From the NCBI GenBank assembly GCA_964350165.1, contig CAYGJA010000001.1:174545-238544 (forward strand): a DNA stretch of 64,000 nucleotides, read 5' to 3'. Under the pieces are notes generated by a model. It worked only from the letters and a program-made list of their open reading frames with translations. It was not told the DNA's origin and did no database searches. A program made the translations under genes and the position numbers. Origin of the DNA: an uncultured Candidatus Saccharibacteria bacterium. Lineage in GTDB: Bacteria; Patescibacteriota; Minisyncoccia; Phycocordibacterales; UBA1006. This document shows, piece by piece, positions 44,564-63,068 of the stretch (positions are counted from its first letter, which is position 1; every line of letters starts with the position of its first letter).

Positions 44564-45919
44564 GTGAATATAGAAAGACCACAACAGCCAGAGAATCAAA
44601 ACGGCAAAACACTAGGTCGGCGTGTTTTTTTGAAAAAAATAACCGAAGCAGTCGTTAGCCTGGGTGTATCCAGCATGAGCCTGGGTGTATCCAGTCCGAG
44701 CCCTGGTGCCATCACAGAAACTATCGAAAAACAGACTTCACCAACACCCCTCGAACGCTTTGAAGAGTGTGGTCCGTTGGAGGTTTGGTCCAAAAACCCT
44801 CTTATGCCGAGTAATCAAAATGACAATCTTTCGGAATTAACTGCCGGGAAAATAACAGAAACTTCAATGGATCAATATCTGAAACTCGTTACAAAAGCAG
44901 ATAAGGAACCTCTGAATGACTCCGAACAATACATCGTAGAACGCATTGCTCGCTGGCTACACACCAAAGGCAACACAGCCCGAGCAGAAGCCGAAAGAAA
45001 TCTTCTTTCTAATTTTCCCGAATACCAAAGTGACCCCGAGCTTGCGTGGAGATTACTCGAAGTGTGCTTCACTAGAAAAATACGTCGAGAATTACTAAAA
45101 ACAGCAGACAAGTTTTTGGCTGAAGGAAAATTATCTTATCTTGGCCTAGAACCACTCTCCCCCCAAGAAACAAACTGGTGCACCCAAGAACAGGTTCATC
45201 ACGTCACACTTGCCAGTGCAAAAGTTGCAAACAAAATAGCCAAAAACTGCTTGGAAACAGCTCCCGATATCTGGCTAGATGGACTGGAAAAAGAAGAACG
45301 TAACAACTATCTCTACTCTGAAGACAAATCTCCTGTTTCTTGGCCGCAGCCCGAAATACTCGCAAAACTAGAACAACAAGAAACCTCTTCTGGTGCCTAT
45401 CTAGGCGATGTCCCTTATTTTGTTTCCACCAACACAAAAAAGGGATTTTTTCCCACGTCAAAGCCAGATATTATCAAAATCGCAAAACTTTTAGAAAAAA
45501 GCACCAACCTACCCTACACAACAGAACTCTCCAACGGTCGGCTAGCTATTGAATATATTCCCTCTTCCATACGTGGAAATACCAAATTCAATACCAGTGG
45601 CGGTGCCATAATGGGTCAATTTATGCCTATTCATCTTCTACATCTTTTGGAAAAATATGAAGCCACCAGATTAGGTCATGAAGAAGAACTTCCCATTCTT
45701 CACCCCAATACCCCGCTTGGATCCATGGCGCTAAAGGCCTTGTATTTGTATGGATGCTGGAATTGGCGCCAAGGCAAAGAAGATGGAGGCTATTGGATAG
45801 AAAGCCGCTACCCAAAAGGTGGCGGCCTGCAAAACCCAGGAAAAGCCCTACGAACCTGGAATCCTAGCACAACAGAAATCAAGACAATCCTTGGCAGCCT
45901 ACCAGATCACAACGAATAG
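44564..45919 (+). CDS. hypothetical exported protein (Tat-like RR signal), 451 aa
   Basis: N-terminus GRRVFLKKITEAVVSLGVSS is a twin-arginine-like signal. The rest has no recognizable motif. Confidence 0.5.
   Translation: MNIERPQQPENQNGKTLGRRVFLKKITEAVVSLGVSSMSLGVSSPSPGAITETIEKQTSPTPLERFEECGPLEVWSKNPLMPSNQNDNLSELTAGKITETSMDQYLKLVTKADKEPLNDSEQYIVERIARWLHTKGNTARAEAERNLLSNFPEYQSDPELAWRLLEVCFTRKIRRELLKTADKFLAEGKLSYLGLEPLSPQETNWCTQEQVHHVTLASAKVANKIAKNCLETAPDIWLDGLEKEERNNYLYSEDKSPVSWPQPEILAKLEQQETSSGAYLGDVPYFVSTNTKKGFFPTSKPDIIKIAKLLEKSTNLPYTTELSNGRLAIEYIPSSIRGNTKFNTSGGAIMGQFMPIHLLHLLEKYEATRLGHEEELPILHPNTPLGSMALKALYLYGCWNWRQGKEDGGYWIESRYPKGGGLQNPGKALRTWNPSTTEIKTILGSLPDHNE
44657..44698 (+). repeat. 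tandem 21-bp repeat (2 copies + partial third) inside the Tat-signal region
   Basis: agcctgggtgtatccag(catg)/agcctgggtgtatccag(tccg)agccctgg. Encodes SLGVSSM-SLGVSSP-SPG. Confidence 0.7.
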
Positions 45920-45955
45920 GCTAGAGAGCCACAAAATATCTCCAGTGACCAAAAA

Positions 45956-46186
45956 TTATTTTTTCTTAAGAAAACTCCAAAACTTTGGATGATCCACAAT
46001 CAGCTCGCTAATAATCGCAAAAGGTATTGATACGAGAAACACAATTCCAACCACTTCCCAAGTAATTTTGGCATCAGTGGCAAAAGCAATAGCCAGCAAA
46101 TCTTCGGCAAGGCCAAAGACTACTCCAACCAACAAAAATTCTAAAAAGGTAATCCAGCGCTTGTGCTTTTTTTCTTGTTTAGACAC
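45956..46186 (-). CDS. hypothetical small membrane protein
   Basis: 76 aa, two TM segments, K-rich ends. Confidence 0.4.
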   Translation of the reverse strand: MSKQEKKHKRWITFLEFLLVGVVFGLAEDLLAIAFATDAKITWEVVGIVFLVSIPFAIISELIVDHPKFWSFLKKK

Positions 46187-46347
46187 TTCTTTTATTATAA
46201 CTTTTTTAATTACAAATCAAAAAACCAAGTCACCGCTGGTAATCGACATTACCTGATCGGCCTCGATTCCCCACACCCCGGACGATAAGTTCCAAAAGGA
46301 GTTTTGCCAATCAATCCCCCGTATTAGGGTCCCGACAATCAGCAATA

Positions 46348-46390
46348 ATTAAAATACCCCCGACCAATCTTGCTGATTGGCCGGGGTTTT
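46348..46390 (+). terminator. strong rho-independent terminator (also readable on minus strand)
   Basis: CCCCGACCAATC-ttgct-GATTGGCCGGGG followed by TTTTTT. No annotated plus-strand gene ends upstream of it. Confidence 0.7.
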
Positions 46391-46735
46391 TTATTTGTGG
46401 AAAGAGGAAAAGTAGACCACCACGGTCTCCTTTGTCGACGGGTCTGTCCCCTCCCCGTACAAGAGAAAGGGCGCAAATATTATCGCACTTCCTCCAGGTT
46501 CCACCCGGAGGAACCTTTCTCTGTTGCTATCCCCCTCGTCAAACCAGATGGGGGAGGTGCTCTTTTTGTTTTGTACAAGGTACGTATCCGTACCTTGTAT
46601 CCGTGTGACCGAGCAAGTCACGTATATCTCGTAGTGCGGATACGAGAAAACAAGCTTTTTTTCCTCCGCAGGAGTCTGCGCCATCACACCGGCACTTGCC
46701 GTCAACCATAGCGCAAAAAATACAAAAATTTTCAT
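46391..46735 (-). CDS. hypothetical small secreted protein
   Basis: Signal peptide MKIFVFFALWLTASAGVMAQTP. The coding sequence is unusually palindrome-rich. Confidence 0.45.
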   Translation of the reverse strand: MKIFVFFALWLTASAGVMAQTPAEEKKLVFSYPHYEIYVTCSVTRIQGTDTYLVQNKKSTSPIWFDEGDSNRERFLRVEPGGSAIIFAPFLLYGEGTDPSTKETVVVYFSSFHK

Positions 46736-47255
46736 AAAAACAACCGGGTTAGTATCCGGCCTCCTTCTTATATTATGCTATTTATTAAAACTTTTGTCAA
46801 ACAGATAGATTCAAGAACTGGCCTTAGATATCCTCGCTGGTTATTGCCGTTTCGGACACTTGTTCGTCGACAAAGAGAGCGACGGTGATAGGATTCGGCG
46901 GAGAGTAAGGGATTCGGTCAGGAGTCGTTATTTTCAAAAATCACTACGTGATTAAGAAAATATACGCTCACGACCCTAGCTTGCTCCCCAATGGTCGGCC
47001 TGCTGTCCTCGCATTGGGGCCCCGCTCCGCTTTTCGAATCCCTTATCTACTACAAACGAAAAGCTCCAACGCTACGCATTGGGACCTAACGTTTGTGGCG
47101 GGCTACCTCGGGCTGGAACCGTGGACAGTCAAGCCCAGTAAGGTTATTTTTTACTATTTCAGAATAACAAATCGAGGCGTCTCGAGCACACTATTTCGTG
47201 ACAAAAGTGACAGATTTAGGAATTAAAAGTTACACTATCCCGTAACATTATCGTT
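46736..47255. other. 520-bp structured intergenic region; candidate ncRNA and/or integration (att) site at the core/island junction; identity unresolved
   Basis: No plausible ORF. Several strong hairpins (ccccaatg...cattgggg at 46986-47019; GGGGCCCC). Plus strand has a GGATTCGGCGG motif repeated twice. Minus strand has GACUGUCCACGG resembling the RNase P RNA P2/P4 3' region. Neither a full tmRNA nor an RNase P fold could be built by eye. Confidence 0.3.
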
Positions 47256-47891
47256 TTAAAAACGACCTTCTAAACCCTTATCCGAGACCCGAGTAACTTC
47301 TATTGAACCGTGACGACCTCTGTCACGTGGATTACTATAGTAGTTACCCTTAAGAGTATTTCCCCCATCAAAAATACCAAGTACACATGTGCCATTATGA
47401 TCTCTCATGTCTTGATCATGATTCACAGTCGCTGTCCTATTTTGATATAAGTAGAAAATACTCCAATTTTTGTGTTCATTTACACCGACATCAGCAACAA
47501 TACTGTAGGATGAAGAATTTTTCGTATAAAGTGCCACGAATACATTTGTGAGAGTTTGCTTTATTTCAACCACAATCTCATATGTTTGAGATTCATTGTA
47601 ACTACTTACCAATAATCCCTCATACCGACCGTTAATATTTGGTATTTGAAATAGCCTAGAAAATAGAGGGTATTTCCATAGCCATCTATCGGTGAGCACA
47701 AAGAATGCAAACATAACAACCACTGTCGCTGGGGGTTCAATCAAGCCCATTCGTAACATGTCATCAACGGGAGGCATCAAAGTAATATTGTCTAAAATTC
47801 CTGATATAACCCTTGCTATCCAAAAAGAAGGTATCAAAGATCCTAGAAAGAACGTTATATAGAATTTGTATGTGAGTCGAAACGCTTTCAT
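47256..47891 (-). CDS. CBASS-type effector candidate: two N-terminal TM helices + about 130-aa soluble C-terminal domain (Cap15/2TM-beta or SLATT-like)
   Basis: TM1 FYITFFLGSLIPSFWIARVISGIL and TM2 PATVVVMFAFFVLTDRWLW, then a beta-rich C-terminal domain. It starts 5 bp after the nucleotidyltransferase gene on the same strand. Confidence 0.55.
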   Translation of the reverse strand: MKAFRLTYKFYITFFLGSLIPSFWIARVISGILDNITLMPPVDDMLRMGLIEPPATVVVMFAFFVLTDRWLWKYPLFSRLFQIPNINGRYEGLLVSSYNESQTYEIVVEIKQTLTNVFVALYTKNSSSYSIVADVGVNEHKNWSIFYLYQNRTATVNHDQDMRDHNGTCVLGIFDGGNTLKGNYYSNPRDRGRHGSIEVTRVSDKGLEGRF

Positions 47892-47895
47892 GCCA

Positions 47896-48777
47896 TTACA
47901 TGCCTAGAGCCAGACGCCATTTTTGCTCAGCCCCTGAAACAGTAGATGCATCATAAGCATCTAACGCATGATTCGAAGACTCGCGTAGCTGGTTGAAAAA
48001 GTTCTGCTGATTTATTATGCTCCATCCTTCAGTTATGTTTTCTACCCCGCAAACACTCGGAATGTCTCTGAATTGGCCTAGTTGTCGGTCCCATTTATCT
48101 AGTATGGCATTGCTCACCAAACAGAAAGTTCCAGCGTAATCATTGTAAAACTTGTCTGATGGCATTGCATAAACGAAGGCTTCCATTTTGAAAGACGAAA
48201 TGGTGTCAGAATCATGAAAGTGGTTTTTTACCCAATTTTTAAACATTCGGACTGTTGGCTTATAAGTGTCTTGTGTTGCTTGTTGTTTTACAACTCCGTT
48301 ATTGTAGTGAGTGCGAGGCATGTTCATTTTCTCAGTTCCTGTCCGCATTGAATAAACAGCAACAGGATCCGTCTTCGGATCATCTGAAATCTGCACCGCT
48401 GGTACTACATCTGCATTGAATGCTCCAGTAATTTTTATACATTTATCGCCACGTTCAATTGACCATTGGTAACGACGCTGGTTCCTAAGTTTCTGTTCGA
48501 TCTCTGAAAAAATACTGTCCCAAGAAATTGAGCCCGAGAAGCGACGTGGCGAATGTACTGAACTGTAAGTCGCTTTGCGGACTGCCACGACATCCACGTC
48601 GTTGATGTCAGAGATCGCCGTACTATTTTTATATGATCCTTGTAGGAAGGTATGATGAGTATCACCAAGCAATTCTTGAATATAGTTTTGAAGTGTGGCC
48701 ACTTGCGTTATTTTCGATGGCGACGGACTAGATGTCAGTGTGTCGATGAGGTGAGTTGGTATGTTGTGGCGTGCCAT
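47896..48777 (-). CDS. cGAS/DncV-like nucleotidyltransferase (CD-NTase, SMODS domain)
   Basis: Pol-beta NTase signature GSYKNSTAISDINDVDVVAV (GS...D.D) plus the downstream third acidic motif FNADVVPAV. 293 aa, typical of minimal SMODS CD-NTases. Confidence 0.7.
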   Translation of the reverse strand: MARHNIPTHLIDTLTSSPSPSKITQVATLQNYIQELLGDTHHTFLQGSYKNSTAISDINDVDVVAVRKATYSSVHSPRRFSGSISWDSIFSEIEQKLRNQRRYQWSIERGDKCIKITGAFNADVVPAVQISDDPKTDPVAVYSMRTGTEKMNMPRTHYNNGVVKQQATQDTYKPTVRMFKNWVKNHFHDSDTISSFKMEAFVYAMPSDKFYNDYAGTFCLVSNAILDKWDRQLGQFRDIPSVCGVENITEGWSIINQQNFFNQLRESSNHALDAYDASTVSGAEQKWRLALGM

Positions 48778-48788
48778 AATTTTTTGAA

Positions 48789-49445
48789 TTACTTCTTAAT
48801 CACATCAATTACTTTCCCGCTCACCTCAAAGTCATCTCCATATGCGATGAAAATTGGATGGTACTTTTCAGTTGAGTCTGCTTCTAAAACAAAGCGGTTA
48901 TGTACCACATCATTTCTAAAACGCTTGATCGTAGCAAGCCCATCAATTACAGCCACTACGATGTCTCTGTTCTTCGGTGTTTTATCTGCACTATCAACCA
49001 CAAGATAATCTCCATCCTCAATAGTAACTCCAGGCTTATTTGTAGGATCAACTTCGGCCTTATTCATAGACGGTCCATCTGCAACCAATACAAACAAATC
49101 TTTTTTACGATGAGGCAAGAGGCTGGTCGATACTTTGAGAAAACCCTCAACTCGCTCATCTGCAAATACAGTAGCGGGACCGCAATTAGCAGTACCGACA
49201 ATCGGTAGAGAAAACAATAGACGCGCTTTAGAGCTTACCGAATTGAAGCCTCGTTTGATTGGTTTGATAACATTATCCTCTAAATTCACTTGGAGAAGCC
49301 CTTTTTTATCTAGCTGAAGAAGATGATGCTTCACAATTTGAGGTTTGTTTTGTACCCCTACAAGTTTGGCCAAACTACGCAAACTCATTTGTCCCAGGTC
49401 ATGTTGACTTGCTAAATTTAATAGTTTTTCTTGTATTTGATGCAT
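48789..49445 (-). CDS. lexA: LexA/CI-like S24 autopeptidase repressor
   Basis: N-terminal LexA-type winged HTH (IQEKLLNLASQHDLGQMSLRSLAKLVGVQNKPQIVKHHLLQLDKKGLL). Ala-Gly-type cleavage region. C-terminal S24 domain with the Ser in ADGPSMN and the Lys in ATIKRF. Confidence 0.8.
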   Translation of the reverse strand: MHQIQEKLLNLASQHDLGQMSLRSLAKLVGVQNKPQIVKHHLLQLDKKGLLQVNLEDNVIKPIKRGFNSVSSKARLLFSLPIVGTANCGPATVFADERVEGFLKVSTSLLPHRKKDLFVLVADGPSMNKAEVDPTNKPGVTIEDGDYLVVDSADKTPKNRDIVVAVIDGLATIKRFRNDVVHNRFVLEADSTEKYHPIFIAYGDDFEVSGKVIDVIKK

Positions 49446-49570
49446 GGTTATATACTACCGTATATTTCTATATATGTCCACAATACTGTCAATTACCTTT
49501 ACACTCTTGACACCTGAAAACAAAGAGCATAAAATGGGAGTGGCTTAGTTCTTTCATTATCAGATTAACT
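49446..49570 (-). promoter_or_regulatory. putative promoter/operator of the lexA-like/CD-NTase/effector operon (divergent region)
   Basis: Minus-strand TTGACA-N17-TAGAAAT. The inverted repeat ATATAC-N4-GTATAT (49447-49462) lies between the -10 element and the start codon. Confidence 0.4.
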
Positions 49571-49729
49571 CTACTGACTATGGCTAAAAGCAATAAAAGT
49601 AAAGTCACCAGCCCCCGAGCAGCGCGTGCCGCCAGCAAAGTTCTACGAGATGGTCGGACTTCCCGATCATCCAAAACTGCTGCGGGAAGTGCTTTGTCTC
49701 AAAAGCCCGGACGACCCAAAAAGCGTAAA
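49571..49729 (+). CDS. small basic protein (52 aa), hypothetical
   Basis: ATG...TAA ORF MAKSNKSKVTSPRAARAASKVLRDGRTSRSSKTAAGSALSQKPGRPKKRK. It is absent from the ORF track (<60 aa) and divergent from the lexA-like gene. Confidence 0.3.
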
Positions 49730-49738
49730 TAAGATATT

Positions 49739-50071
49739 ATGGGAAACCTAAAGTACTACGATATTGTTTTGACTGACTTGAAGTTACATGTGCTTAAAGC
49801 TCGCAAACCAAAATCTTTCGGGTATCAGATGCACAGGTCACTGCGAACCGGAAAGCCTGGTCGAGCACGCAATCACGTTAACCAAATATCTGATGAACAA
49901 GACTCTGATTCTTTTGAGATATCTTTCCCTCTTGGAGAAGAAATCCTATCAGCACAACAAGAAGCTGCTAGACAAGGCAAAAAGTTACGAATTCTTTTTC
50001 CGAAAGACGGAATTCCTATCTTTGCTGGAGAAGATACTCAAGAGTATATCCTCAGCAAAAAGAAAAAATGA
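49739..50071 (+). CDS. hypothetical protein (mobile-element gene)
   Basis: 110-aa ORF. No motif. A 10-bp-stem hairpin plus T-run follows at 50170-50240. Confidence 0.4.
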   Translation: MGNLKYYDIVLTDLKLHVLKARKPKSFGYQMHRSLRTGKPGRARNHVNQISDEQDSDSFEISFPLGEEILSAQQEAARQGKKLRILFPKDGIPIFAGEDTQEYILSKKKK

Positions 50072-50258
50072 ATACACCTGTTAGCAAAACGTGTGGTATC
50101 ACGTATTTCGCAATCTAATTTGCGATAGAAGGTAGTCAATACTACCAGAGAGATCTCCATTGGTCTCGGTCATGCCCACTTTGCAAAGCAAACACCAGAA
50201 ATATTTCTGTTGTCTGTTTTGTGAAGTGGGCATTTTTATTTGTCTAAAAAGATAATTT

Positions 50259-51545
50259 ATGAACAAAAACAAAATCAAAATTGAATATATTCCTATTACT
50301 AAACTAAAAGCCTCTTCATACAATCCAAGAAAGATTGACCAAAAAAGTTTTGATCAACTTGTAGAAAGCATCAAGCACTTTGATTTGATCGATCCAATTA
50401 TTGTCAACGGATCACCCAATCGCAAAAATATAGTCATTGGTGGGCATATGCGTCTTCGTGCTGCAAAACACCTCGGTCGGGAAACAATGCCGGTTGTTTA
50501 TGTAAACATCTCTGACATAGAAGAGGAAAAAGAACTTAACATCAGACTCAATAAAAACACTGGAGATTGGGATTATGAATTACTCAAATCATTTGATCTC
50601 GACCTCCTTACTGATGTTGGTTTCGACAAAATAGACCTAGCCAGGTTTTGGGACGATGATACGAACGAGTCAAAAGATGATGAATTTAATGTCGAAAAAG
50701 AACAGAAAGAAATCAAAAAAACTGATATTGGGTTGGGTGATTTACTCATCATGGGCCAGCATAAACTTCTCTGCGCAGATGCCACTGATCCAAACGCTCT
50801 CAAAGCAGTATTCGGCAAAGACAAAGCGTCAATGATATACAGTGACCCAATCTATAACATCGGCCTGGATTACGACAAAGGCGTTGGTAACAAAGCAAGC
50901 TACGGTGGTACGGTTGACGATAACAAATCTGCCACGGAGTACAAATCATTTATCAAACAAACACTCGAAGCGGCATTATCTGTGTCAAACAAGAACACCC
51001 ATATCTTCTATTGGTGCGACGAAGCTTGGGTCTGGGTATTCCAGACCTTGTACAACGACCTTGGTATCAAAAATCGTAGACTTAACGTCTGGATAAAAAA
51101 CAACGCTTCGCCAACACCAACCGTAGCATTTAACAAGGTCACGGAGTTCTGTGTATATGGGACAAAAGGAAGTCCTTACCTGTCGCCACACATACGAAAT
51201 TGCACTGAAGTTGTGAATCCAGAATTAGGCACTGGTAATGATTTGCTCGAAGATATTCGCAATGTTTGGACAGAAAAACGTCTCAGAGCATCTGAATATG
51301 AACATGCAACTAGTAAGCCACCTCAATTACACGAAAAAGCAATCAAACGGTGTACAAAGCCTGGAGATATCATACTGGACTCCTTCTCTGGCTCAGCCAG
51401 CACTATGGTCGCTGCTGAAAAACTCAAACGACGAGTATATTCAACGGAGCTAGAACCCATCTTCTGTGAACTCGCGCGTCGCCGCTTCGAAAGTTTCACT
51501 GGTAAAAAAACAAAACTCATCAAAAAATTCTATGAAAAAGCATAA
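50259..51545 (+). CDS. ParB-like nuclease domain fused to beta-class N6-adenine/N4-cytosine DNA methyltransferase
   Basis: N-terminal ParB/Srx motif (IIVNGSPNRKNIVIGGHMRLRAAKHLG). MTase motif IV SDPIYNIG is followed later by motif I LDSFSGSAST (beta-class order IV then I). Confidence 0.8.
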   Translation: MNKNKIKIEYIPITKLKASSYNPRKIDQKSFDQLVESIKHFDLIDPIIVNGSPNRKNIVIGGHMRLRAAKHLGRETMPVVYVNISDIEEEKELNIRLNKNTGDWDYELLKSFDLDLLTDVGFDKIDLARFWDDDTNESKDDEFNVEKEQKEIKKTDIGLGDLLIMGQHKLLCADATDPNALKAVFGKDKASMIYSDPIYNIGLDYDKGVGNKASYGGTVDDNKSATEYKSFIKQTLEAALSVSNKNTHIFYWCDEAWVWVFQTLYNDLGIKNRRLNVWIKNNASPTPTVAFNKVTEFCVYGTKGSPYLSPHIRNCTEVVNPELGTGNDLLEDIRNVWTEKRLRASEYEHATSKPPQLHEKAIKRCTKPGDIILDSFSGSASTMVAAEKLKRRVYSTELEPIFCELARRRFESFTGKKTKLIKKFYEKA

Positions 51546-51939
51546 ATTCTCCCAAAAGTTCCTCGATGAGCTAAAGAAAGTACCAATAGTTCAGGTTGCC
51601 TGCGAAAAAACAGGATTGTCTCGCAACACTATCTACCGTTGGAAACGTGAAGATAAAAAGTTTGCTCAGGCATTTGACGAGGCACTATCTGATGGGATTT
51701 CATTCGTAAATGATATGAGTGAAAGTCAGTTACTACAACTAATCAAAGAGAAAAATTTTTCAGCTGTGCGCTTCTGGCTTAATAAGCGTCACCCTGCTTA
51801 CAAAGACAAACTAGAGGTGACACGATCTGGAAATATTGAAGAACTTACTCCAGAACAACAAGCTACTGTTCGCAAAGCACTGGAACTTGCCAAAATTATT
51901 CAACCTAAACAAGATATTCATGAAGAAAAATCACAATAA
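51532..51939 (+). CDS. putative terminase small subunit / HTH DNA-binding protein
   Basis: HTH VACEKTGLSRNTIYRWKRED. Size and position immediately upstream of the large terminase. Confidence 0.5.
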   Translation: MKKHKFSQKFLDELKKVPIVQVACEKTGLSRNTIYRWKREDKKFAQAFDEALSDGISFVNDMSESQLLQLIKEKNFSAVRFWLNKRHPAYKDKLEVTRSGNIEELTPEQQATVRKALELAKIIQPKQDIHEEKSQ

Positions 51940-53458
51940 CATTATTCCGGAAGATCTCTTCCAGACTCTCACCAAAGATAAAACTGTTCGTCGTGAAGTA
52001 ATGAAGAATAGTTTCAACTACTTTTTCCATTTTTACTTTCACCACTATGTAGAATTTGAAACCGCACCTTTCCAACACAATCTCATTTACAAATTGGAAA
52101 ATGAGCCAGATGAGAACATTTATGTCGTAGCATTCCGTGGTTCAGGAAAATCTACCATTGCTACAACGGCTTATCCAATTTGGTCAATCCTTGGGAAGCC
52201 TCAAAAGAAATTCATTATTATCTTCTGTCAAACACGCGCGCAAGCGAAGCAACATATGATGAACATCCGCAACGAACTAGAAAACAATCCTCTCCTCAAG
52301 AATGATCTCGGACCATTTAATGAAGAATCCGATGAATGGGGTTCTCATTCGCTTGTATTTTCAAATACACAGGCCCGTATCACTGTCGCTTCTTCTGAGC
52401 AGAGTATCCGAGGTTTGCGTCATCATCAGCACCGACCTGATTTATTTATCTGTGACGACGTCGAGGACGTACAATCAACTAAAACTCGAGAGGGGCGCAA
52501 CAAGACGTATCAATGGCTCACTGGCGACGTAATACCAGCTGGAGGAAAAAATACTCGATTAGTTGTAGTTGGTAACTTGCTCCATGAAGACTCGCTTCTC
52601 ATGCGTATTCGAGACCGTATCAATCAAAAAGAACTTGCTGGCACTTTCATGTCATGTGCAATTATGGACGACGATGGTAACTCTAATTAGACTGGCAAGT
52701 TTCCTAACCCTGAATCACTAGAAAAGGAACGTAAGAGGATTGGTGACGAAATTGCCTGGCAACGTGAGTATTTGCTGAATATCATTCCTGATGAGGATCA
52801 GGTAATTCATCTAGAATGGCTGCATTTCTACGACAATACCAAGTTGCCGCCAACAGAACATATCACCTTTAATGGCACCTATTCTGGGGTAGATTTGGCA
52901 ATTTCACTGAAAGATACAGCAGACAATACTGCTATTGTATCAGCTAATATTCATGGTCGGAATGAAAAGCTTCGCATATTTATACTGCCAAGCCTGATAA
53001 ATCAGAAAATAGACTTCCCTCAACAAGTTGAACTACTAAAGATGCATCGTGGAGCTGTTCTGAATAAACCCAATGATCGTCTTTTTGTTGAAAGTGTCGC
53101 ATACCAAGATGCATTACCTCAAATGCTTAATTCTCAAGGAGTTGATGCCGAAGCCGTCCGACCATTGAATGATAAGCGGACGCGACTAGCGCTAACCTCA
53201 ACCTCGATAAAGAACGGGAATATCCTTTTCCCGAAAACAGGATGTGAACAGCTTATTGAACAAATTGTGGGTTTTGGAGTAGAGAAACATGACGACTTAG
53301 CTGATGCTTTCTCTCTGCTTATCCACAAGATTGTTGAATTACACACTCAACAAGGAACCATTGCTTTTGCGATTATGGTTACTGGTAGTGACGATGATGC
53401 AGGTATTGTTTATCACAGTGACTATTATGATGTTCTAGACGATTATGATGTCAGCTGA
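51920..53458 (+). pseudogene. terminase large subunit interrupted by a single in-frame TAG at 52688-52690 (nonsense mutation or programmed readthrough)
   Basis: N-terminal ATPase with Walker A AFRGSGKST and Walker B LFICDDVED (51920..52687). After the TAG the same frame continues (TGKFPNPESLEKERKRIGDEIAWQREY...) into the RNase-H-like nuclease domain: GVDLA, ESVAYQD, HDDLADAF. Confidence 0.75.
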
Positions 53459-54028
53459 TTATCGATGTTTAATTGAGCCACCCAGTAAATTCTTGAATGA
53501 AACTTTACAGTTAGTAGCCGCTGGGTTGTCTGTGGTAAGTGTGGAAAATGGCGACGTTTGGTCAGGAAGAATGGGGTTGTATTCCAGAAGTGCTTCACTA
53601 GACTTCACAAACGTACCGTCTTCAGTGTAAATACTTCCAAGAACGGCAACATTTTCAAGAGGTTTTCCGCTAATATTCTTAACTTCACCATCAATATGGA
53701 AATAACCATATTCTTTGTAACAGTTAAAAGATAAAAGTTCGAGTTGATCTATATTTGATTCTTGTTGACGACTAGAGCTACTTGATTCACTTCTTGTGCT
53801 TGATGGTGATGGACTGGAGTCGTTGTCTCCTCCAAATATTGCTGTAAACATAACAATCATTCCAATTACAATGATTATCGTTGCTACAACATTTTGTGTT
53901 TTCTGCTTAGTTCCACAATAAGAGCACTTTCTTGCTTGTATAGGAATCTCTTTTAAACATTCGTGACACTTCTTGGTCGTGTTTGGATCGACTGGCTCAT
54001 TTGCTTTCGAGAGCTTAAATGACTTCAT
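53459..54028 (-). CDS. hypothetical membrane protein with N-terminal zinc-ribbon (CxxC...CxxC), one TM, Ser-rich linker and extracytoplasmic domain
   Basis: KKCHECLKEIPIQARKCSYCGTKQ, then TM IIIVIGMIVMFTAIFG, then SSPSPSSTRSESSSSS. Confidence 0.5.
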   Translation of the reverse strand: MKSFKLSKANEPVDPNTTKKCHECLKEIPIQARKCSYCGTKQKTQNVVATIIIVIGMIVMFTAIFGGDNDSSPSPSSTRSESSSSSRQQESNIDQLELLSFNCYKEYGYFHIDGEVKNISGKPLENVAVLGSIYTEDGTFVKSSEALLEYNPILPDQTSPFSTLTTDNPAATNCKVSFKNLLGGSIKHR

Positions 54029-54300
54029 AATAAAAACGTACCTAATTAATAATCAGGCAGTGGGCATATAAAAATCCCACCACCAAGTACAGCCGGAGCT
54101 GATATCGCAGATTTCTCTGAAATAGCACGAAGAGTGACCCTTGATGATGGGGTTTCAATACTCTTCGTGTCTAACGATATTTGGACCATACCGCCGTCGA
54201 AACGACGTCGGGTTAGGCCACTAAGTTGTTTTTCTATAGTACTCAACTACTACCTGAATAGCAATCAAATACTATAATTTCATTGTATCGCTGTTTGAGT

Positions 54301-54342
54301 CTTTTGCTAAACGTTTTGCCAACGTTTTTAGCTTAGCAAAGC
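54301..54342. repeat. nested inverted repeats upstream of the serine recombinase gene (candidate att/operator)
   Basis: cttttgctAAACGTTTtgccAACGTTTttagcttagcaaag. Two AACGTT-containing palindromes are bracketed by ttgctaa/ttagcaa. Confidence 0.4.
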
Positions 54343-54367
54343 AAGTGAACTCTGGCATTAATAGAAT

Positions 54368-55651
54368 ATGGAAAAAGAAGCAAAACTACGCTATTGCCTA
54401 TACGCCAGAAAAAGCACCGAGAGCGATGAACGCCAAGCTTTGTCAATTGAGTCTCAAGTGAAAGAGATGCTTCAAATTGCTGAAAAAGATGGACTAGATA
54501 TTGTCGATATTCGACGTGAAGCCAAGTCTGCTAAAGATTCTGGCAACAGGCCAGTGTTCAAAGAATTACTCAGTGATGTAAAACAAGAACGATTCAATGC
54601 GATTCTGACTTGGGCACCAGATCGGCTGTCTAGAAATGCTGGAGATCTTGGTTCAGTTGTTGATTTGATGGATGATAAGAAACTCTTGTCGATCCGGACA
54701 TATGGTCAAACATTTTCCAACTCACCCAACGAAAAGTTCTTGCTGATGATCCTGTGTTCGCAAGCGAAACTAGAAAACGATAACCGAGGTATTAACGTAA
54801 AACGAGGGCTCCGTACTAGATGTGAAATGGGACTGTGGCCCACTAATGCCCCTACGGGTTACGTCAAAGAAAAGCGCACTGACCGAAAGTGTCAATGCCT
54901 TCTGGATCCAGAGCGAGCGCCAGTAATTAAACAAATGTTTGAGAAGGTCGCATACGAAAAATGGTCAGGACGGAAGCTCTACCACTGGCTCAAGTTTGAT
55001 TTGAACTTCAGGACTGGCAAAGGCAAGAAACATCTCAGCCTCGGTAACATTTACCGCATCCTCGAAAACACCTTTTACTACGGCGAATTTGAATATCCAC
55101 GAAAGTCTGGTAATTGGTACCAAGGAAAACACGAACCAATCATTACCAAAGAACTATTTGACCTGGTTCAAGAACAAGTTAAAAACTCCCAACTGGTTCG
55201 CAAAGAAAACATCGAGTTTGCTTTTACCAAAATCATGAAATGTGGACTTTGCGGATCTGGTATATCCGCCACCGAGAAGTTCAAAAGGCTCAAAGCTGGC
55301 GGGTACAATCGCCATGTCTACTACGGTTGCACCAAGGCAAGAGATAAGCATTGCAAATGCGGCTATATCAATGAGACTGACCTGATAAAACAACTTCAAC
55401 AGCTCACTGGCCAACTCGATCTCAAGAAGACTCCAATGCAGAGCAAGATCAGGTCAGAAATCCGAAGATTCAAGAAGTTCCAAAGGATGGTCACTGGAAA
55501 AAGTGACAATATTGAAGTTACTGATATTGATGTACAGAATTATGCGAAGTTTATTTTGAAAGAAGGTTCAAATGAAGAAAAGCGAGACATTATAAAACAC
55601 CTCAAGGGATTTCTACTTCTCAAAGAAAAAGAATTATCCATTGAAACATAA
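54368..55651 (+). CDS. large serine recombinase (resolvase-family catalytic domain + recombinase domain + zinc ribbon)
   Basis: YCLYARKSTESDERQALSIESQ (catalytic Ser) and DRLSRN match the resolvase N-terminal domain. 427 aa. The C-terminal Cys cluster CGLCGS...CTKARDKHC is a zinc-ribbon typical of large serine integrases. Confidence 0.85.
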   Translation: MEKEAKLRYCLYARKSTESDERQALSIESQVKEMLQIAEKDGLDIVDIRREAKSAKDSGNRPVFKELLSDVKQERFNAILTWAPDRLSRNAGDLGSVVDLMDDKKLLSIRTYGQTFSNSPNEKFLLMILCSQAKLENDNRGINVKRGLRTRCEMGLWPTNAPTGYVKEKRTDRKCQCLLDPERAPVIKQMFEKVAYEKWSGRKLYHWLKFDLNFRTGKGKKHLSLGNIYRILENTFYYGEFEYPRKSGNWYQGKHEPIITKELFDLVQEQVKNSQLVRKENIEFAFTKIMKCGLCGSGISATEKFKRLKAGGYNRHVYYGCTKARDKHCKCGYINETDLIKQLQQLTGQLDLKKTPMQSKIRSEIRRFKKFQRMVTGKSDNIEVTDIDVQNYAKFILKEGSNEEKRDIIKHLKGFLLLKEKELSIET

Positions 55652-55692
55652 GTAATTTACTTGTACCCCCAAGGGGTATATAATACTTTCGT

Positions 55693-55962
55693 ATGAAAAG
55701 TGACAAATCAGCGAAGCTGGTGATACGCCTAAAGAAGATCGAAGGGCAAGTTCGCGGACTACAGAGAATGGTTGCCGATGATACTTATTGTATTGATGTA
55801 ATTACACAATCCTCTGCTATTCGCCATGCATTATCTTCGTTTGAAGACAAGCTCCTTGAACAACATCTTTCATCCTGCGTTGTACACCAAATCAAGGAAG
55901 GAAAAGAAAGCCAGGCGATTGATGAAGTTTTGGCGGTCCTCAAAAAAGCCAAGAAAAGATAA
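55693..55962 (+). CDS. csoR: CsoR/RcnR-family metal-sensing transcriptional repressor (Cu-sensing C-H-C type)
   Basis: LKKIEGQVRGLQRMV..DTYCIDVITQ...HLSSC carries the CsoR ligand set: Cys in YCIDV and H-x3-C. Confidence 0.85.
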   Translation: MKSDKSAKLVIRLKKIEGQVRGLQRMVADDTYCIDVITQSSAIRHALSSFEDKLLEQHLSSCVVHQIKEGKESQAIDEVLAVLKKAKKR

Positions 55963-55965
55963 TTT

Positions 55966-56379
55966 ATGAATACAAGAGCAACAAAGACAAGGTTATTTTC
56001 ACGAATTGGAATTGGTATTTTTGCTACCGTTGTTTTGATTGCATCCTTACTTTGCCTTAATTCTTTCCAGATGTCGAAAGAAGCTCCCTGTGGTGAGACA
56101 GCACAACATAGCAGCTCGTCACTTTGTGATAGTCCGATCAATCACGTTTCGTTAGCAAATCGAGCAATCCCACAAAATGCACTTGGCCTAGCTGCTTTTT
56201 TCTTACTGCTTGCGACTTTTGCGTTGCACTATGAGTCAGTAGCAAGGTTCTTTAACTCATTAAAAAAGTTTTTCAGCCCTCCGCCCAGACCAATAAGATT
56301 AAGGGCTGTTTCGTACCGAAGTATTTTTGTTTATCTCTTTGCAAAAGGCATTCTTCATACCCAAGTGTATTCATACTAG
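55966..56379 (+). CDS. hypothetical membrane protein
   Basis: Two hydrophobic segments and several Cys. No family motif. Confidence 0.35.
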   Translation: MNTRATKTRLFSRIGIGIFATVVLIASLLCLNSFQMSKEAPCGETAQHSSSSLCDSPINHVSLANRAIPQNALGLAAFFLLLATFALHYESVARFFNSLKKFFSPPPRPIRLRAVSYRSIFVYLFAKGILHTQVYSY

Positions 56380-56429
56380 AGTAATTTCTCAGATAAGAAC
56401 TTTTACTCATTTTTTTAAAAACTCAATTC

Positions 56430-57305
56430 ATGAAAAATACAACTATTATTGGCCTTCTCGCGCTTGTAGTGATCTTGGGTGCAGTCTTCCTAATACGGAA
56501 AGGACCTTCTCAGCAGACAATAACACAGGAACAAAATACAGATGAGGATGGTCATCATGATGATGACAAGGTTGCATCATATGAGATCTATCCAGGGGAT
56601 GTTGCCAAGAAAATAGAAAACCAAGAAGACTTTATTTTGTTGGATGTTCGTACTCCACAAGAGTACGAAGAAGTCCACCTGGAAAACGTCCTACTACTTC
56701 CGGTGGAAGAATTGTCACAGCAAACACTAAATGTTATCGGACTTGGACAGGATAAGAAAGACCAAGAAATTATTATTTATTGTCGCAGCGGTGCTCGGAG
56801 CAAAATTGCATATGACGTAATGAAGTCATTGGGCTACACCAATATCACAAGTGTGGCGGGTGGCATGGTTCACTGGCAAGAAGACAATTATCCATTTACT
56901 GAATCTGGTTCATATCAAGGACCAAGTTGGTCAAATAAAACATCGATGACCGAGAAAGTTGAGTCCACTGTCGGGCCTACAATAACCATTGAAAATGATT
57001 TCCATGACTTTGGCGTTATCTCACAGTATGGAGGTGTCGTGACCAAAGATTTCACAATAGTGAACTCTGGTTTAGGAACGCTTGAGATTGGGACACTGAC
57101 GACGAGTTGTAGCTGTACCTCAGCAGAAATGTCTCGCTCATCAATCCCAGAGGGCGGATCAGCTACCCTTACGGTCACCTTTGACCCTGATTTCCACGCT
57201 GAACCAGGTAGCGTATTCAAACGCACCGTCTTTATCCCAACGAATGACCCAAATACTCCCGAAGCTGAAGTGGTCATTCAAGTAGATATTGATGAAGGTA
57301 ATTAA
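56430..57305 (+). CDS. membrane-anchored rhodanese (sulfurtransferase) domain fused to DUF1573 Ig-like domain
   Basis: N-terminal TM. Rhodanese active-site loop IIIYCRSGARS with flanking LLDVRTPQEYEEVH. C-terminal DUF1573-like FHDFGVISQYGGVV...TSCSCTS. Confidence 0.7.
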   Translation: MKNTTIIGLLALVVILGAVFLIRKGPSQQTITQEQNTDEDGHHDDDKVASYEIYPGDVAKKIENQEDFILLDVRTPQEYEEVHLENVLLLPVEELSQQTLNVIGLGQDKKDQEIIIYCRSGARSKIAYDVMKSLGYTNITSVAGGMVHWQEDNYPFTESGSYQGPSWSNKTSMTEKVESTVGPTITIENDFHDFGVISQYGGVVTKDFTIVNSGLGTLEIGTLTTSCSCTSAEMSRSSIPEGGSATLTVTFDPDFHAEPGSVFKRTVFIPTNDPNTPEAEVVIQVDIDEGN

Positions 57306-57328
57306 TTAACGTAACTAATTTTAAATTT

Positions 57329-57820
57329 ATGAACAAAGTAACAATAATTTCAATTATAGGTGCAGTGGTTGTTATTGGAGGAGCGATTGCTTTTTCTGCG
57401 TCAACCAATCCTAGTTCTACAAGCCTATCCAAATCTGCTGAGGTCACTGTAGCCTCAGAGATTACTGTTGATCGGGAGATACATGACTTTGGCGAGATCG
57501 ACATCTTTGGAGGCAAAGTTCAATCAGACTTTACCCTCACCAATACAGGCACGGAAGATGTAACCATTACTGCTGCAACAACCAGTTGCGGTTGTACCGA
57601 AGGAGTGGTTGGAGGGGAAAATTTTGGTATGCACTCGAAGCTCACTGCTGAAGTCACTATACCAGTTGGAGAAACCGAAACGCTTACAGCAATCTATGAC
57701 CCACTTGCTCATGGTCCGAATGGTACAGGTCAGATTACTCGACAGCTCTTCCTGAAAACCAATTCAAGAACAACACCAGAAATAGAAGTACGCATCTCTG
57801 CTGATGTATACAAAGATTAA
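57329..57820 (+). CDS. DUF1573-family protein (paralog of the C-terminal domain of the preceding gene), N-terminal TM
   Basis: IHDFGEIDIFGGKVQSDFTLTNTG...TSCGCTEG parallels FHDFGVISQYGGVVTKDFTIVNSG...TSCSCTSA in the preceding gene. Confidence 0.65.
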   Translation: MNKVTIISIIGAVVVIGGAIAFSASTNPSSTSLSKSAEVTVASEITVDREIHDFGEIDIFGGKVQSDFTLTNTGTEDVTITAATTSCGCTEGVVGGENFGMHSKLTAEVTIPVGETETLTAIYDPLAHGPNGTGQITRQLFLKTNSRTTPEIEVRISADVYKD

Positions 57821-57822
57821 CC

Positions 57823-58781: not shown

Positions 58782-58784
58782 CTA

Positions 58785-62320: not shown

Positions 62321-62331
62321 TCAGATCTTAT

Positions 62332-63066: not shown

Positions 63067-63068
63067 TC

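What the first reader, a model, noticed from the sequence alone, without database searches (positions are those of the whole stretch)
47256..49570. Three-gene operon: LexA-like S24 repressor, SMODS cyclic-oligonucleotide synthase and 2-TM effector (minimal CBASS under an SOS-type switch)
Three genes are tightly packed on the minus strand with gaps of 11 bp and 4 bp. The first is a LexA/CI-type autocleaving repressor (winged HTH, with S24 Ser in GPSM and Lys in IKRF). The second is a nucleotidyltransferase with the cGAS/DncV-like GS...SDxDVD + hDVVP active site. The third is a 211-aa protein with two N-terminal TM helices and a small soluble domain, which is the architecture of Cap15/2TM-beta or SLATT effectors. 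Only CapH/CapP or unrelated regulators have been reported for CBASS. A bona fide LexA-fold repressor as first gene of the operon would couple abortive-infection signalling directly to RecA*-mediated autocleavage. The promoter shows TTGACA-N17-TAGAAAT. A perfect ATATAC-N4-GTATAT palindrome overlaps the transcription start region and is a candidate operator. The location is a reduced Patescibacteria-like genome inside a satellite/prophage remnant.
Basis: partly seen in the sequence, partly recalled or inferred. Interest (0 to 1): 0.8.

Follow-up and report, generated by a model that had tools for sequence, protein, structure and literature searches.

The report
Mobile-element repressor operon carrying CBASS
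The three genes are real: a self-cleaving LexA-like repressor followed by an ordinary two-gene CBASS anti-phage system. The repressor is the master switch of a small terminase-carrying mobile element of Patescibacteria, and the position behind it is a swap-in slot for many different defence systems.

Summary
Three tightly packed minus-strand genes encode a LexA-fold S24 protein, a clade-E-like CD-NTase and a Cap15 effector. The last two form a canonical type I CBASS.

The S24 protein is not a CBASS-specific regulator. It is the hallmark repressor of a widespread family of about 9-15 kb integrative, capsid-less elements. Their core is S24, then divergently small ORFs, ParB-methylase, TerS, TerL and a serine integrase.

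In 34 of 46 S24 loci with enough flank, that core lies divergently upstream. Downstream of S24 the genes vary:
- several CBASS types (about 43% of loci)
- Thoeris-like TIR
- TIR plus caspase
- STAND-like ATPase, PIN-TPR, E1/E2 and a methylase

The slot always ends at a conserved non-coding block. The closest CBASS relative (87% identity) is paired with an S24 only about 30% identical. Other relatives carry an HTH plus M78 (CapH/CapP-like) pair in the same position.

A different repeat, TGTMAA (17-bp TGT-N11-ACA), is conserved and overlaps the -35 of the divergent promoter. The S24 mRNA appears leaderless.

The best model is a lambda cI-rexAB-like repressor-plus-defence operon on a satellite-like island. 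Whether DNA damage raises or lowers CBASS expression is unresolved.

The parts
47095..47262 (-). Conserved non-coding terminal block that closes the cargo slot. It contains an imperfect inverted repeat (47249-47241 / 47234-47226), the tandem TGTCAC-TTT-TGTCAC (47212..47198), the hairpin TCGAG-ACGC-CTCGA plus a T-run (47185..47172, terminator-like), and a GC-rich end. The element boundary is probably near 47090.
   Evidence: blastn and alignment against 16 or more related loci. TGTCACTTTTGTCAC-type tandem: 49 hits in 5.5 Mb of loci, 48 on the S24 strand. In S24-anchored loci it lies 0.9-6.8 kb after the S24 stop. Terminator-like hairpin. No RNA covariation. Logan contigs end at window positions 47054 and 47072.
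47256..47891 (-). Cap15-type CBASS effector, 211 aa: two N-terminal TM helices plus a cyclic-dinucleotide-binding beta-barrel domain.
   Evidence: Pfam Cap15_CD_rec 1e-24; PADLOC 2TM effector 2.6e-43 over residues 1-204, which supports the 211-aa start over the 193-aa gene call. PDB 7N34 at 1.4e-6. Hydrophobic segments. dN/dS 0.13 against L246.
47896..48777 (-). CD-NTase (CBASS cyclase), 293 aa, closest to CdnE-clade enzymes.
   Evidence: PADLOC Cyclase 6.8e-30; Pfam SMODS 27.4 bits; precomputed CD_NTase_C. Profile against PDB: 6E0K 3.7e-31, 6E0M, 7X4F. Invariant G47 S48 D60 D62 D123. dN/dS 0.08 against L246.
48789..49445 (-). LexA-fold repressor, 218 aa. It has an N-terminal winged HTH, a putative Cys88-Gly89 cleavage loop, and an S24 domain with Ser126/Lys174.
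   Evidence: Pfam Peptidase_S24 3.2e-16. PDB LexA and UmuD hits, with full-length alignment to 1JHH. PHROG transcriptional repressor 5.6e-19. More than 1500 homologues at 60-76% identity.
49452..49480 (-). Predicted S24-operon promoter, TGGACA-N17-TAGTAT. The -10 hexamer ends 6 nt before the ATG, so the mRNA would be leaderless or nearly so.
   Evidence: Promoter scan. In 56 of 72 homologous upstream regions a -10 hexamer ends 5-9 nt before the ATG (shuffles give 5.8), and 49 of these have TGn.
49450..49465 (.). It overlaps the -10/start region. It is window-specific and not conserved.
49487..49513 (-). Conserved operator-like repeats GTGTCAA-GA-GTGTAAA-GGTAA-TTGACA. They comprise three TGTMAA half-sites, including a 17-bp TGT-N11-ACA inverted repeat at 49503..49487.
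   Evidence: Upstream alignment of 72 loci. Strict tandem pattern in 38 of 72 regions at fixed distances, against 0.005 expected per region. Relaxed pattern in 61 of 72 against 0.85 in shuffles. Only one exact copy in the window.
49507..49535 (+). Strong divergent promoter TTGACA-N17-TAAAAT for the mobilisation/packaging operon. Its -35 hexamer is the outermost operator half-site.
   Evidence: Promoter scan, 11 of 12 matches, the best in the region. The equivalent TTGACA...TATACT arrangement is visible in relatives.
49580..50071 (+). Two small ORFs leading the divergent operon: a 50-aa basic protein (phrog_5079) and a 110-aa protein conserved in relatives.
50259..51545 (+). ParB_N-DNA methyltransferase fusion, an element core gene.
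   Evidence: Pfam N6_N4_Mtase 6.6e-29 and ParB_N 9.9e-13; phrog_498 1.2e-85.
51532..51939 (+). Small terminase subunit, an element core gene.
   Evidence: PHROG terminase small subunit 3.2e-12; conserved in relatives.
51920..53458 (+). Large terminase gene, interrupted by an in-frame TAG at 52688-52690 where relatives have an invariant Trp.
   Evidence: tblastn against the intact L010 TerL: 71% identity in one frame with a single stop. The codon was read directly. The intact homologue matches phrog_38 at 3e-75. The same split appears in an independent Logan contig.
53459..54028 (-). Zn-ribbon protein in a second accessory slot between TerL and the integrase, with a weak superinfection-exclusion-like match.
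   Evidence: The same slot holds Ltp in L083 and R-M systems in IMG/VR relatives.
54368..55651 (+). Large serine recombinase (integrase). It is the last core gene and probably marks the other end of the element.
   Evidence: Pfam Resolvase, Recombinase and Zn_ribbon_recom; phrog_95 integrase 4.7e-62.

Best explanation
The three genes are the 'repressor plus cargo' operon of an integrated, phage-derived mobile element of about 8.6 kb (window ~47090-55700). The element carries no capsid genes and so resembles a phage satellite.

Shown:
- The element core is a LexA-fold S24 repressor, transcribed divergently from small ORFs, ParB-methylase, TerS, TerL and a serine integrase.
- The stretch between the S24 stop codon and a conserved terminal DNA block is a variable slot. 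In different copies it holds different defence systems. Here it holds a type I CBASS (CdnE-like CD-NTase plus Cap15).

Inferred:
- S24 dimers bind the conserved TGTMAA repeats in the 134-bp control region. This covers the -35 of the strong divergent promoter and keeps the packaging and integrase genes silent.
- The S24 promoter lies just downstream of the repeats. It produces a leaderless S24-cdnE-cap15 transcript that ends at the hairpin at 47185-47172.
- CBASS is therefore made together with the repressor whenever the element is quiescent, as lambda makes rexAB with cI.
- On infection by another phage the CD-NTase makes a cyclic dinucleotide. Cap15 binds it through its beta-barrel and permeabilises the membrane (abortive infection). 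This follows from what is established for the Cap15 family.
- DNA damage would trigger RecA*-stimulated self-cleavage of S24 at Cys88-Gly89 by Ser126/Lys174. The primary effect would be to switch on the mobilisation genes.
- Whether CBASS expression then rises or falls is not determined.

This particular copy has a nonsense mutation in TerL, so it is probably a packaging-dead, domesticated defence island.
For: - Domain identities.
- Element core divergent from S24 in 34 of 46 S24 loci with at least 2 kb upstream. The same synteny surrounds CD-NTase relatives.
- Variable cargo directly behind S24: SAVED effector plus CD-NTase, patatin plus CD-NTase-AGS_C, SMODS plus REase-like, ThsB-TIR pair, TIR plus caspase, MBL, PIN-TPR, E2/E1, STAND-like ATPase and a methylase.
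- The S24-to-first-cargo gap is 50 bp or less in 45 of 68 loci.
- The slot is closed by the conserved TGTCAC-TTT-TGTCAC block, 0.9-6.8 kb after S24 in the S24-anchored loci.
- Repressor and cargo are uncoupled. In L246 the CD-NTase is 87% and Cap15 80.5% identical (dN/dS 0.08 and 0.13), while S24 is about 30% identical.
- L012 and L247 carry HTH_3 plus Peptidase_M78 in place of S24 before the same CBASS family.
- Control region: conserved repeats in 61 of 72 loci, and a -10 hexamer ending 5-9 nt before the ATG in 56 of 72. Strong divergent promoter sharing its -35 with the repeats.
- No promoter-like or terminator-like site at the two junctions. A terminator-like hairpin follows cap15.
- No capsid or portal genes between TerL and the integrase in close TerL relatives. 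That space holds R-M and other defence genes instead.
- No structural PHROG hits to the right of the integrase in the window. A copper-resistance cluster lies there.
- TerL nonsense codon.
Against: - No transcript, binding or cleavage data exist. Co-transcription is inferred only from spacing and motif scans.
- 12 of 46 S24 loci lack the terminase module, yet several still carry defence-like genes downstream. An S24-plus-defence unit can therefore exist without the element core.
- About 43% of the cargo slots contain a CD-NTase. This could reflect a functional preference rather than chance.
- The protein that binds the TGTMAA repeats is not identified. The repeats are partly direct, which is unusual for LexA-type dimers.
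- The satellite status rests on the absence of structural genes in sampled loci. No helper phage is known.
- The right-hand boundary of the element was not mapped.
Confidence: 0.65

Rival explanations
1. The S24 protein is a dedicated SOS-type switch for the defence cassette. It represses its own operon as LexA does, so RecA*-induced self-cleavage raises CBASS expression after DNA damage. It would be a one-protein functional analogue of CapH/CapP.
For: - The genes are co-operonic, with an 11-bp gap.
- In relatives of the same element an HTH_3 plus M78 pair occupies the same position before the same CBASS family. That pair has the architecture of CapH/CapP, which induce CBASS on DNA damage.
- S24 heads defence-like genes even in some loci without the terminase module.
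- The right arm of the conserved inverted repeat is a TTGACA hexamer (49487-49492). If that hexamer serves as a -35 it would be occluded by the bound repressor.
- The S24 phage repressor FddR autoregulates through a palindrome of the same 17-bp geometry, GTG-N11-CAC.
Against: - The family-wide conserved promoter is the leaderless one downstream of the repeats, not the one using TTGACA at 49487-49492. No conserved -10 follows that hexamer in relatives.
- The cargo is interchangeable and the nearest CBASS is paired with a 30%-identical S24, so there is no S24-CBASS co-evolution.
Confidence: 0.25
2. The S24 gene is the host's own chromosomal lexA. A CBASS cassette and a prophage remnant merely landed on either side of it.
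For: Several sources label homologues 'LexA'. The family is unusually conserved, at 60-76% identity over more than 1500 proteins. Some members sit in long contigs without terminase genes nearby.
Against: - S24 is bracketed by element-specific features on both sides in most loci: the divergent core genes and the conserved terminal block.
- Independent Logan contigs contain S24 plus CBASS. L001 also contains the element core. Both end within about 40 bp outside the block.
- The conserved repeat occurs essentially once per locus, at the S24 control region. There is only one exact copy in the 64-kb window. This does not look like a dispersed SOS regulon.
Confidence: 0.05
3. The locus is a decaying relic. 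The element is dead and the three genes are no longer expressed or functional.
For: TerL carries a nonsense codon at an invariant Trp, seen in independent assemblies.
Against: - All three ORFs are intact, with all catalytic residues present.
- The CBASS genes show strong purifying selection against the nearest relative, with dN/dS of 0.08 and 0.13.
- The promoter and operator-like motifs are intact.
Confidence: 0.05

Closest known systems
Type I CBASS with a CdnE-clade CD-NTase and the Cap15 effector (Cap15 structure PDB 7N34/7N35)
   Same: Two-gene core with the cyclase followed by the effector. The CD-NTase active-site residues are present. Cap15 has two TM helices plus a beta-barrel nucleotide-receptor domain.
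   Different: The host is Patescibacteria. The system is carried in the cargo slot of a mobile element, directly behind a repressor gene. The nucleotide product and the phage trigger are unknown.
Lambda cI-rexA-rexB operon, where defence genes are co-transcribed with the lysogeny repressor from a leaderless PRM transcript (from general knowledge, not tested here)
   Same: An S24 self-cleaving repressor is the first gene and an abortive-infection system lies directly downstream. The control region is back-to-back, with the operator over the lytic-side promoter. The repressor mRNA is predicted to be leaderless.
   Different: The DNA-binding domain is the LexA-type winged helix, not HTH_3. The element has no structural genes. 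The cargo is CBASS and is exchangeable.
Anti-phage hotspots of P2-like phages, P4-like satellites and K139-like Vibrio prophages, the last lying between cI and the integrase (Rousset et al. 2022, PMC9122126)
   Same: A small locus of 1-7 kb with high turnover of defence systems sits between conserved anchors of a phage or satellite. One reported hotspot is adjacent to the cI repressor.
   Different: The host phylum and element family differ. The anchors here are an S24 gene and a conserved non-coding block. There is a second hotspot between TerL and the integrase.
CapH/CapP (HTH repressor plus M78 metallopeptidase) and CapW (WYL), the published CBASS regulators
   Same: A DNA-damage-linked, protease-inactivated repressor sits next to CBASS. 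An HTH_3 plus M78 pair replaces S24 at the same position in related elements.
   Different: S24 is a single self-cleaving protein with a Ser-Lys dyad that presumably depends on RecA*. It lies on the same strand as CBASS and is the first gene of the operon. It is not specific to CBASS.
FddR, an S24-family phage repressor co-opted in Francisella (PMC13148647)
   Same: An S24 repressor of phage origin in a reduced genome. It autoregulates through a 17-bp palindrome, GTG-N11-CAC, and controls divergently transcribed units. The candidate site here is TGT-N11-ACA.
   Different: FddR is proposed as a chromosomal substitute for the DNA-damage regulator. Here the repressor remains on a mobile element and heads defence cargo.
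Phage satellites of the PICI type that carry defence genes (general knowledge; de Sousa et al. 2023, PMC10085698, was listed but not read)
   Same: An integrative element of about 9-15 kb with an integrase, a divergent repressor, terminase subunit genes, no capsid genes and defence cargo.
   Different: It has a serine integrase, both TerS and TerL, and a ParB-methylase. No replication module or helper phage was identified. It occurs in Patescibacteria.

Membership tests
CBASS type I | A CD-NTase with the GS...DxD...D active site | tested here: met
   PADLOC Cyclase 6.8e-30; SMODS above the gathering score; invariant G47 S48 D60 D62 D123.
CBASS type I | An adjacent effector with a cyclic-nucleotide-sensing domain | tested here: met
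   Cap15_CD_rec 1e-24; PDB 7N34 at 1.4e-6; 4-bp gap.
CBASS type I | No Cap2/Cap3 (E1/E2/JAB) or HORMA/TRIP13 accessory genes | tested here: met
   Only S24 lies upstream and only the non-coding block lies downstream.
CBASS type I | Cyclic-oligonucleotide synthesis and anti-phage abortive infection | not testable with these tools
   Needs expression, LC-MS and phage challenge.
CD-NTase clade E | Groups with CdnE enzymes in a phylogeny | tested here: inconclusive
   The best solved relatives are CdnE (6E0K, 6E0M, 7X4F, 7X4C). No tree was built.
Cap15 effector family | C-terminal beta-barrel cyclic-dinucleotide receptor domain | tested here: met
   The Pfam hit covers the full model, positions 2-122 of 122. 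The PDB Cap15 alignment covers residues 72-203. No structure was predicted.
Cap15 effector family | Two N-terminal transmembrane helices | tested here: met
   Two hydrophobic windows. The PADLOC 2TM model is matched from residue 1. Pfam Cap15_TM alone is below its cut-off, at 16.5 bits against 28.2.
LexA/S24 self-cleaving repressors | S24 domain with a Ser-Lys dyad | tested here: met
   Peptidase_S24 3.2e-16. S126 in GPSM and K174 in IKR are invariant in 34 sequences.
LexA/S24 self-cleaving repressors | N-terminal LexA-type winged-helix DNA-binding domain | tested here: met
   Residues 24-217 align with E. coli LexA residues 30-197. A relative carries a precomputed LexA_DNA_bind (faint) hit, and others carry HTH_20.
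LexA/S24 self-cleaving repressors | Ala-Gly or Cys-Gly scissile bond in the linker | tested here: inconclusive
   The A86-N-C88-G89-P loop is invariant. The position is plausible, by analogy with UmuD Cys24-Gly25 (general knowledge). Cleavage was not shown.
LexA/S24 self-cleaving repressors | RecA*-stimulated autocleavage and control of an SOS regulon | not testable with these tools
   No recA gene lies in the window. The repeat motif occurs only at the protein's own control region.
Lambda-CI-type prophage repressor | HTH_3/Cro-C1 DNA-binding domain | tested here: not met
   No HTH_3 hit. The N-terminal domain is LexA-like.
Lambda-CI-type prophage repressor | Divergent control region shared with the lytic or mobilisation genes of the same element | tested here: met
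CapH/CapP or CapW CBASS regulators | HTH plus M78 metallopeptidase pair, or a WYL-domain factor | tested here: not met
   There are no such domains in the window operon. The HTH_3 plus M78 pair is present instead of S24 in relatives L012 and L247.
Phage satellite (PICI-like) | Integrase, repressor and packaging-redirection genes, without capsid, portal or tail genes | tested here: met
Phage satellite (PICI-like) | Helper-phage-dependent induction and packaging | not testable with these tools
   No helper phage was identified.

The most novel reading that the evidence does not exclude
A LexA-fold, self-cleaving S24 repressor may be a third kind of DNA-damage-responsive regulator of CBASS and other abortive-infection systems, after CapH/CapP and CapW. 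It would act as a single protein at the head of the defence operon and could be swapped positionally with an ImmR/ImmA-type pair. It would be embedded in a previously undescribed, phylum-wide family of terminase-bearing, capsid-less defence islands of Patescibacteria. These islands have two cargo hotspots and repeat sites at both ends of the cargo, which might allow looping.
Probability: 0.35. Interest if true: 0.7.

Novelty: new variant of a known kind. Interest (0 to 1): 0.55.

Why it matters
- **Ordinary parts.** The CBASS itself is ordinary. Defence genes riding next to a prophage or satellite repressor is a known theme.
- **A search handle.** What is new is a precise, searchable anchor pair for harvesting defence systems from Patescibacteria: the S24 gene and the TGTCAC-TTT-TGTCAC terminal block. 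This phylum is usually described as poor in defence systems. Many slot genes have no annotation.
- **Testable SOS link.** The locus makes it possible to test whether abortive-infection systems are tied to the SOS-type switch of their carrier element, and in which direction. The natural S24 versus HTH-plus-M78 module swaps offer a comparison.
- **A possible new element class.** The terminase-plus-serine-integrase islands without capsid genes may be a new satellite-like class in ultra-small bacteria.

Tried and rejected
- **CD-NTase in viral contigs.** A search with the single protein gave no confirmed relative. The S24 alignment gave only one, L086. The element family is therefore poorly represented as 'virus' when searched with these two genes. 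The TerL family, by contrast, is abundant in IMG/VR.
- **RNA genes.** Rfam at gathering thresholds over the window found nothing. A permissive search over 45900-47300 gave one chance-level hit. ARAGORN found no tRNA or tmRNA. The GC-rich sequence after cap15 is not a known RNA.
- **RNA structure in the terminal block.** RNAalifold on the GC-rich part of the block gave -1.3 kcal/mol and no covariation. It is treated as a DNA site.
Rejected, because it is present in 1 of 72 upstream regions.
It was not picked up by the scan, and no conserved -10 follows the hexamer in relatives.
- **'Just -35 boxes'.** I considered that the TGTMAA repeats are merely -35 hexamers. This holds only for the outer TGTCAA. 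The middle half-site has no -10 partner, and a similar tandem recurs at the promoter-less far end of the cargo.
- **PADLOC for S24.** No defence-regulator model matched.
- **Structure prediction.** Not run, because sequence hits to solved Cap15, CdnE and LexA were already significant.

Full report
**1. The observation**

The window has three minus-strand ORFs at 48789-49445 (218 aa), 47896-48777 (293 aa) and 47256-47891 (211 aa). They are separated by 11 and 4 bp.

The first ORF is an S24 peptidase (Pfam 3.2e-16). It aligns over nearly its full length with E. coli LexA (1JHH residues 30-197). In an alignment of 34 homologues, S126 (GPSM), K174 (IKR) and an A86-N-C88-G89-P loop are invariant.

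The second ORF is a CBASS cyclase (PADLOC 6.8e-30; SMODS just above the Pfam threshold). G47, S48, D60, D62 and D123 are invariant. A family profile matches solved CdnE enzymes best (6E0K at 3.7e-31).

The third ORF is Cap15 (Cap15_CD_rec 1e-24; PADLOC 2TM effector 2.6e-43 from residue 1; PDB 7N34 at 1.4e-6; two hydrophobic segments).

The palindrome ATATAC-N4-GTATAT exists, but at 49450-49465.

**2. The surroundings**

Immediately across a 134-bp control region, the plus strand encodes the following genes:
- a 50-aa basic protein and a 110-aa protein
- a ParB_N-methyltransferase
- a small terminase
- a large terminase, interrupted by a single TAG at an invariant Trp
- a Zn-ribbon protein on the opposite strand
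- a large serine recombinase

Beyond the recombinase lie a P-type ATPase, a multicopper oxidase and a DsbA-like protein. No gene there has a phage structural match.

Two independent Logan assemblies contain the identical locus. Their contigs end at window positions 47054 and 47072, just past cap15.

**3. Is the S24-CBASS linkage conserved, and is it specific?**

I approached this from both genes.

Starting from the CD-NTase (241 homologues, mostly Patescibacteria), 79 genomic loci were fetched.
- In the Patescibacteria relatives the cyclase-Cap15 pair repeatedly sits in the same element: integrase, TerL, TerS, ParB-methylase, then a divergent junction, then a regulator and the CBASS.
- An S24 gene lies directly upstream in many of them, but not in all.
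- In L012 and L247 the same position is occupied by an HTH_3 protein plus a Peptidase_M78 protein, together with DUF2188. This is the ImmR/ImmA architecture, also known as CapH/CapP.
- The nearest CBASS relative, L246, has an 87% identical cyclase and an 80.5% identical Cap15 (dN/dS 0.08 and 0.13). It lies in the same element with an intact TerL. Its S24 protein is only about 30% identical to the window's.

Starting from S24 (more than 1500 homologues at 60-76% identity), 80 metagenomic loci were fetched.
- Of 46 loci with at least 2 kb upstream, 34 have the ParB-methylase/terminase core divergent from S24.
- Downstream on the same strand the genes differ from locus to locus. The gap to the first cargo gene is usually under 50 bp.
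- The cargo includes Cap15-type CBASS, a SAVED effector plus CD-NTase, patatin plus CD-NTase-AGS_C, SMODS plus a REase-like protein, a ThsB-type TIR pair, TIR plus caspase, an MBL-fold protein, a PIN-TPR giant, an E2/E1 protein, a STAND-like ATPase and a methylase.
- A CD-NTase is present in about 21 of 49 loci with enough downstream sequence.
- A small DUF2188 gene is often interposed.

**4. The slot has a defined far end**

A conserved non-coding block of about 170 bp follows the cargo (window 47262 to about 47095). It holds an inverted repeat, the tandem TGTCAC-TTT-TGTCAC, a short hairpin with a T-run, and a GC-rich end.
- The tandem occurs 49 times in 5.5 Mb of fetched loci, 48 of them on the S24 strand. 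In the S24-anchored loci it lies 0.9-6.8 kb after the S24 stop.
- It shows no RNA covariation.
- It matches no Rfam family.
- I therefore read it as a DNA site: the operon terminator plus the element end or att arm.

The close TerL relatives in IMG/VR have the same core and no portal or capsid genes. They carry a second variable region between TerL and the integrase, which holds type I R-M, helicase-methylase and AAA_15 genes.

The element is therefore a small, capsid-less, terminase-bearing integrative island with two defence hotspots. In other words, it is satellite-like.

**5. The control region**

The conserved feature is GTGTCAA-N2-3-GTGTAAA-N5-TTKACR, at window 49513..49487.
- The strict pattern is found in 38 of 72 regions at fixed distances, against 0.005 expected.
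- The relaxed pattern is found in 61 of 72, against 0.85 in shuffles.
- It contains a 17-bp TGT-N11-ACA inverted repeat. This is the same geometry as the GTG-N11-CAC operator of the S24 phage repressor FddR.

The outer half-site is, on the other strand, the -35 of the best promoter in the region: TTGACA-N17-TAAAAT at 49507-49535, which points into the mobilisation genes.

The S24 promoter conserved in the family lies downstream of the repeats. Its -10 hexamer ends 5-9 nt before the ATG in 56 of 72 loci, and 49 of these have TGn. In the window this promoter is TGGACA-N17-TAGTAT at 49480..49452. The mRNA is therefore leaderless or nearly so.

No promoter-like or terminator-like site lies at the S24/cdnE or cdnE/cap15 junction.

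**6. Mechanism**

Shown:
- the gene identities
- the element family
- the variable slot and its borders
- the conserved repeats and promoters

Inferred:
- S24 binds the repeats and silences the divergent mobilisation operon.
- S24, cdnE and cap15 are co-transcribed from the repressor promoter. The CBASS is therefore expressed while the element is quiescent, and it protects the cell and the element by Cap15-mediated abortive infection.
- RecA*-stimulated cleavage at C88-G89 relieves repression of the packaging and integrase genes.

The sign of S24's effect on its own promoter is open. The geometry looks like lambda OR/PRM: the operator lies upstream of the core promoter and over the opposing -35. 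It does not look like LexA autorepression. This argues against 'CBASS is kept off until SOS', but it does not exclude it.

**7. Comparison with what is known**

- The CBASS is a standard type I CdnE-Cap15 system.
- Defence hotspots next to conserved phage or satellite genes, including one between cI and the integrase, have been published.
- Co-transcription of an abortive-infection system with an S24 repressor is the lambda cI-rexAB arrangement (general knowledge).
- The CapH/CapP and CapW papers mention no S24/LexA regulator. My searches found no report of one, and none of this element family.

I therefore rate the locus a new variant of a known kind. The broader finding may be more useful: an S24-anchored defence slot on a phylum-wide island family.

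**8. Limits**

- Everything regulatory is inferred from sequence.
- The right-hand boundary of the element, its helper phage (if any) and the protein that recognises the TGTMAA and TGTCAC repeats are unknown.
- 12 of 46 S24 loci lack the terminase core and were only partly examined.

Noticed in passing
window 52688-52690 (within 51920-53458): The large terminase gene is one reading frame, 71% identical to an intact relative. It is broken by a single TAG where 14 of 14 relatives have an invariant Trp (TGG to TAG). The same split is present in an independent Logan assembly. This copy of the element is probably packaging-dead.
   Followed up: yes
window 47095-47262; e.g. L143:7165-7395, L155:9195-9425: A conserved non-coding block marks the end of the variable cargo in dozens of loci. 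Its tandem TGTCAC-TTT-TGTCAC has the same half-site and 9-bp period as the repeats in the S24 control region. The same protein may therefore bind both ends of the cargo, allowing looping, or the block may be an att or pac site. It shows no RNA covariation.
   Followed up: partly
window 53459-54028; L171:6944-13755, L179:5605-14203, L167:13107-17144: A second variable region lies between TerL and the serine integrase. It holds a Zn-ribbon, Sie-like gene in the window and an Ltp lipoprotein in L083. In IMG/VR relatives it holds type I R-M systems, helicase plus methylase, and AAA_15 ATPases.
   Followed up: partly
L012:6588-7992; L247:6621-7934: In related elements an HTH_3 plus Peptidase_M78 (ImmR/ImmA, CapH/CapP-like) pair and a DUF2188 gene sit where S24 sits in the window, ahead of the same CD-NTase family. 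This is a natural swap of the regulator module.
   Followed up: partly
L098:8654-8893, L143:5444-5671, L155:7890-8117 and others: A small DUF2188-type protein of 75-95 aa is often inserted between S24 and the first cargo gene. It is absent from the window, and its role is unknown.
   Followed up: no
window 55700-63100; L083:418-2799: A copper-resistance cluster abuts the integrase end of the element. It comprises a CsoR-like repressor, DUF1573/rhodanese proteins, a P-type ATPase, a multicopper oxidase and a DsbA-like protein. In L083, which carries a 70%-identical S24, DUF411 and a multicopper oxidase occupy the same side. This may reflect a preferred integration site or a larger composite island.
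   Followed up: partly
L082, L107, L115, L116, L118, L121, L130, L137, L140, L147, L152: Twelve S24 loci lack the terminase core. Several of them, such as L082 and L152, still show the TGTMAA repeats, and in others (L121, L108) the repeats are in the flipped orientation. Their neighbours include a tyrosine recombinase, DUF2726 plus a Schlafen-type helicase, a ResIII-TnsA-like protein and a methylase. They may be other mobile contexts, or chromosomal copies of the repressor.
   Followed up: partly
window 49580-49732: The first gene of the divergent operon encodes a 50-aa, very basic protein rich in Lys, Arg and Ser. It matches phrog_5079 (1.9e-15, function unknown). It is a candidate small DNA-binding or anti-repressor protein.
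   Followed up: no
window 47256-47891: Public gene calls start Cap15 at an internal Met, giving 193 aa. The PADLOC 2TM model aligns from residue 1 of the 211-aa ORF, which starts 4 bp after the cyclase stop. The longer form, with the complete first TM helix, is more likely correct.
   Followed up: yes
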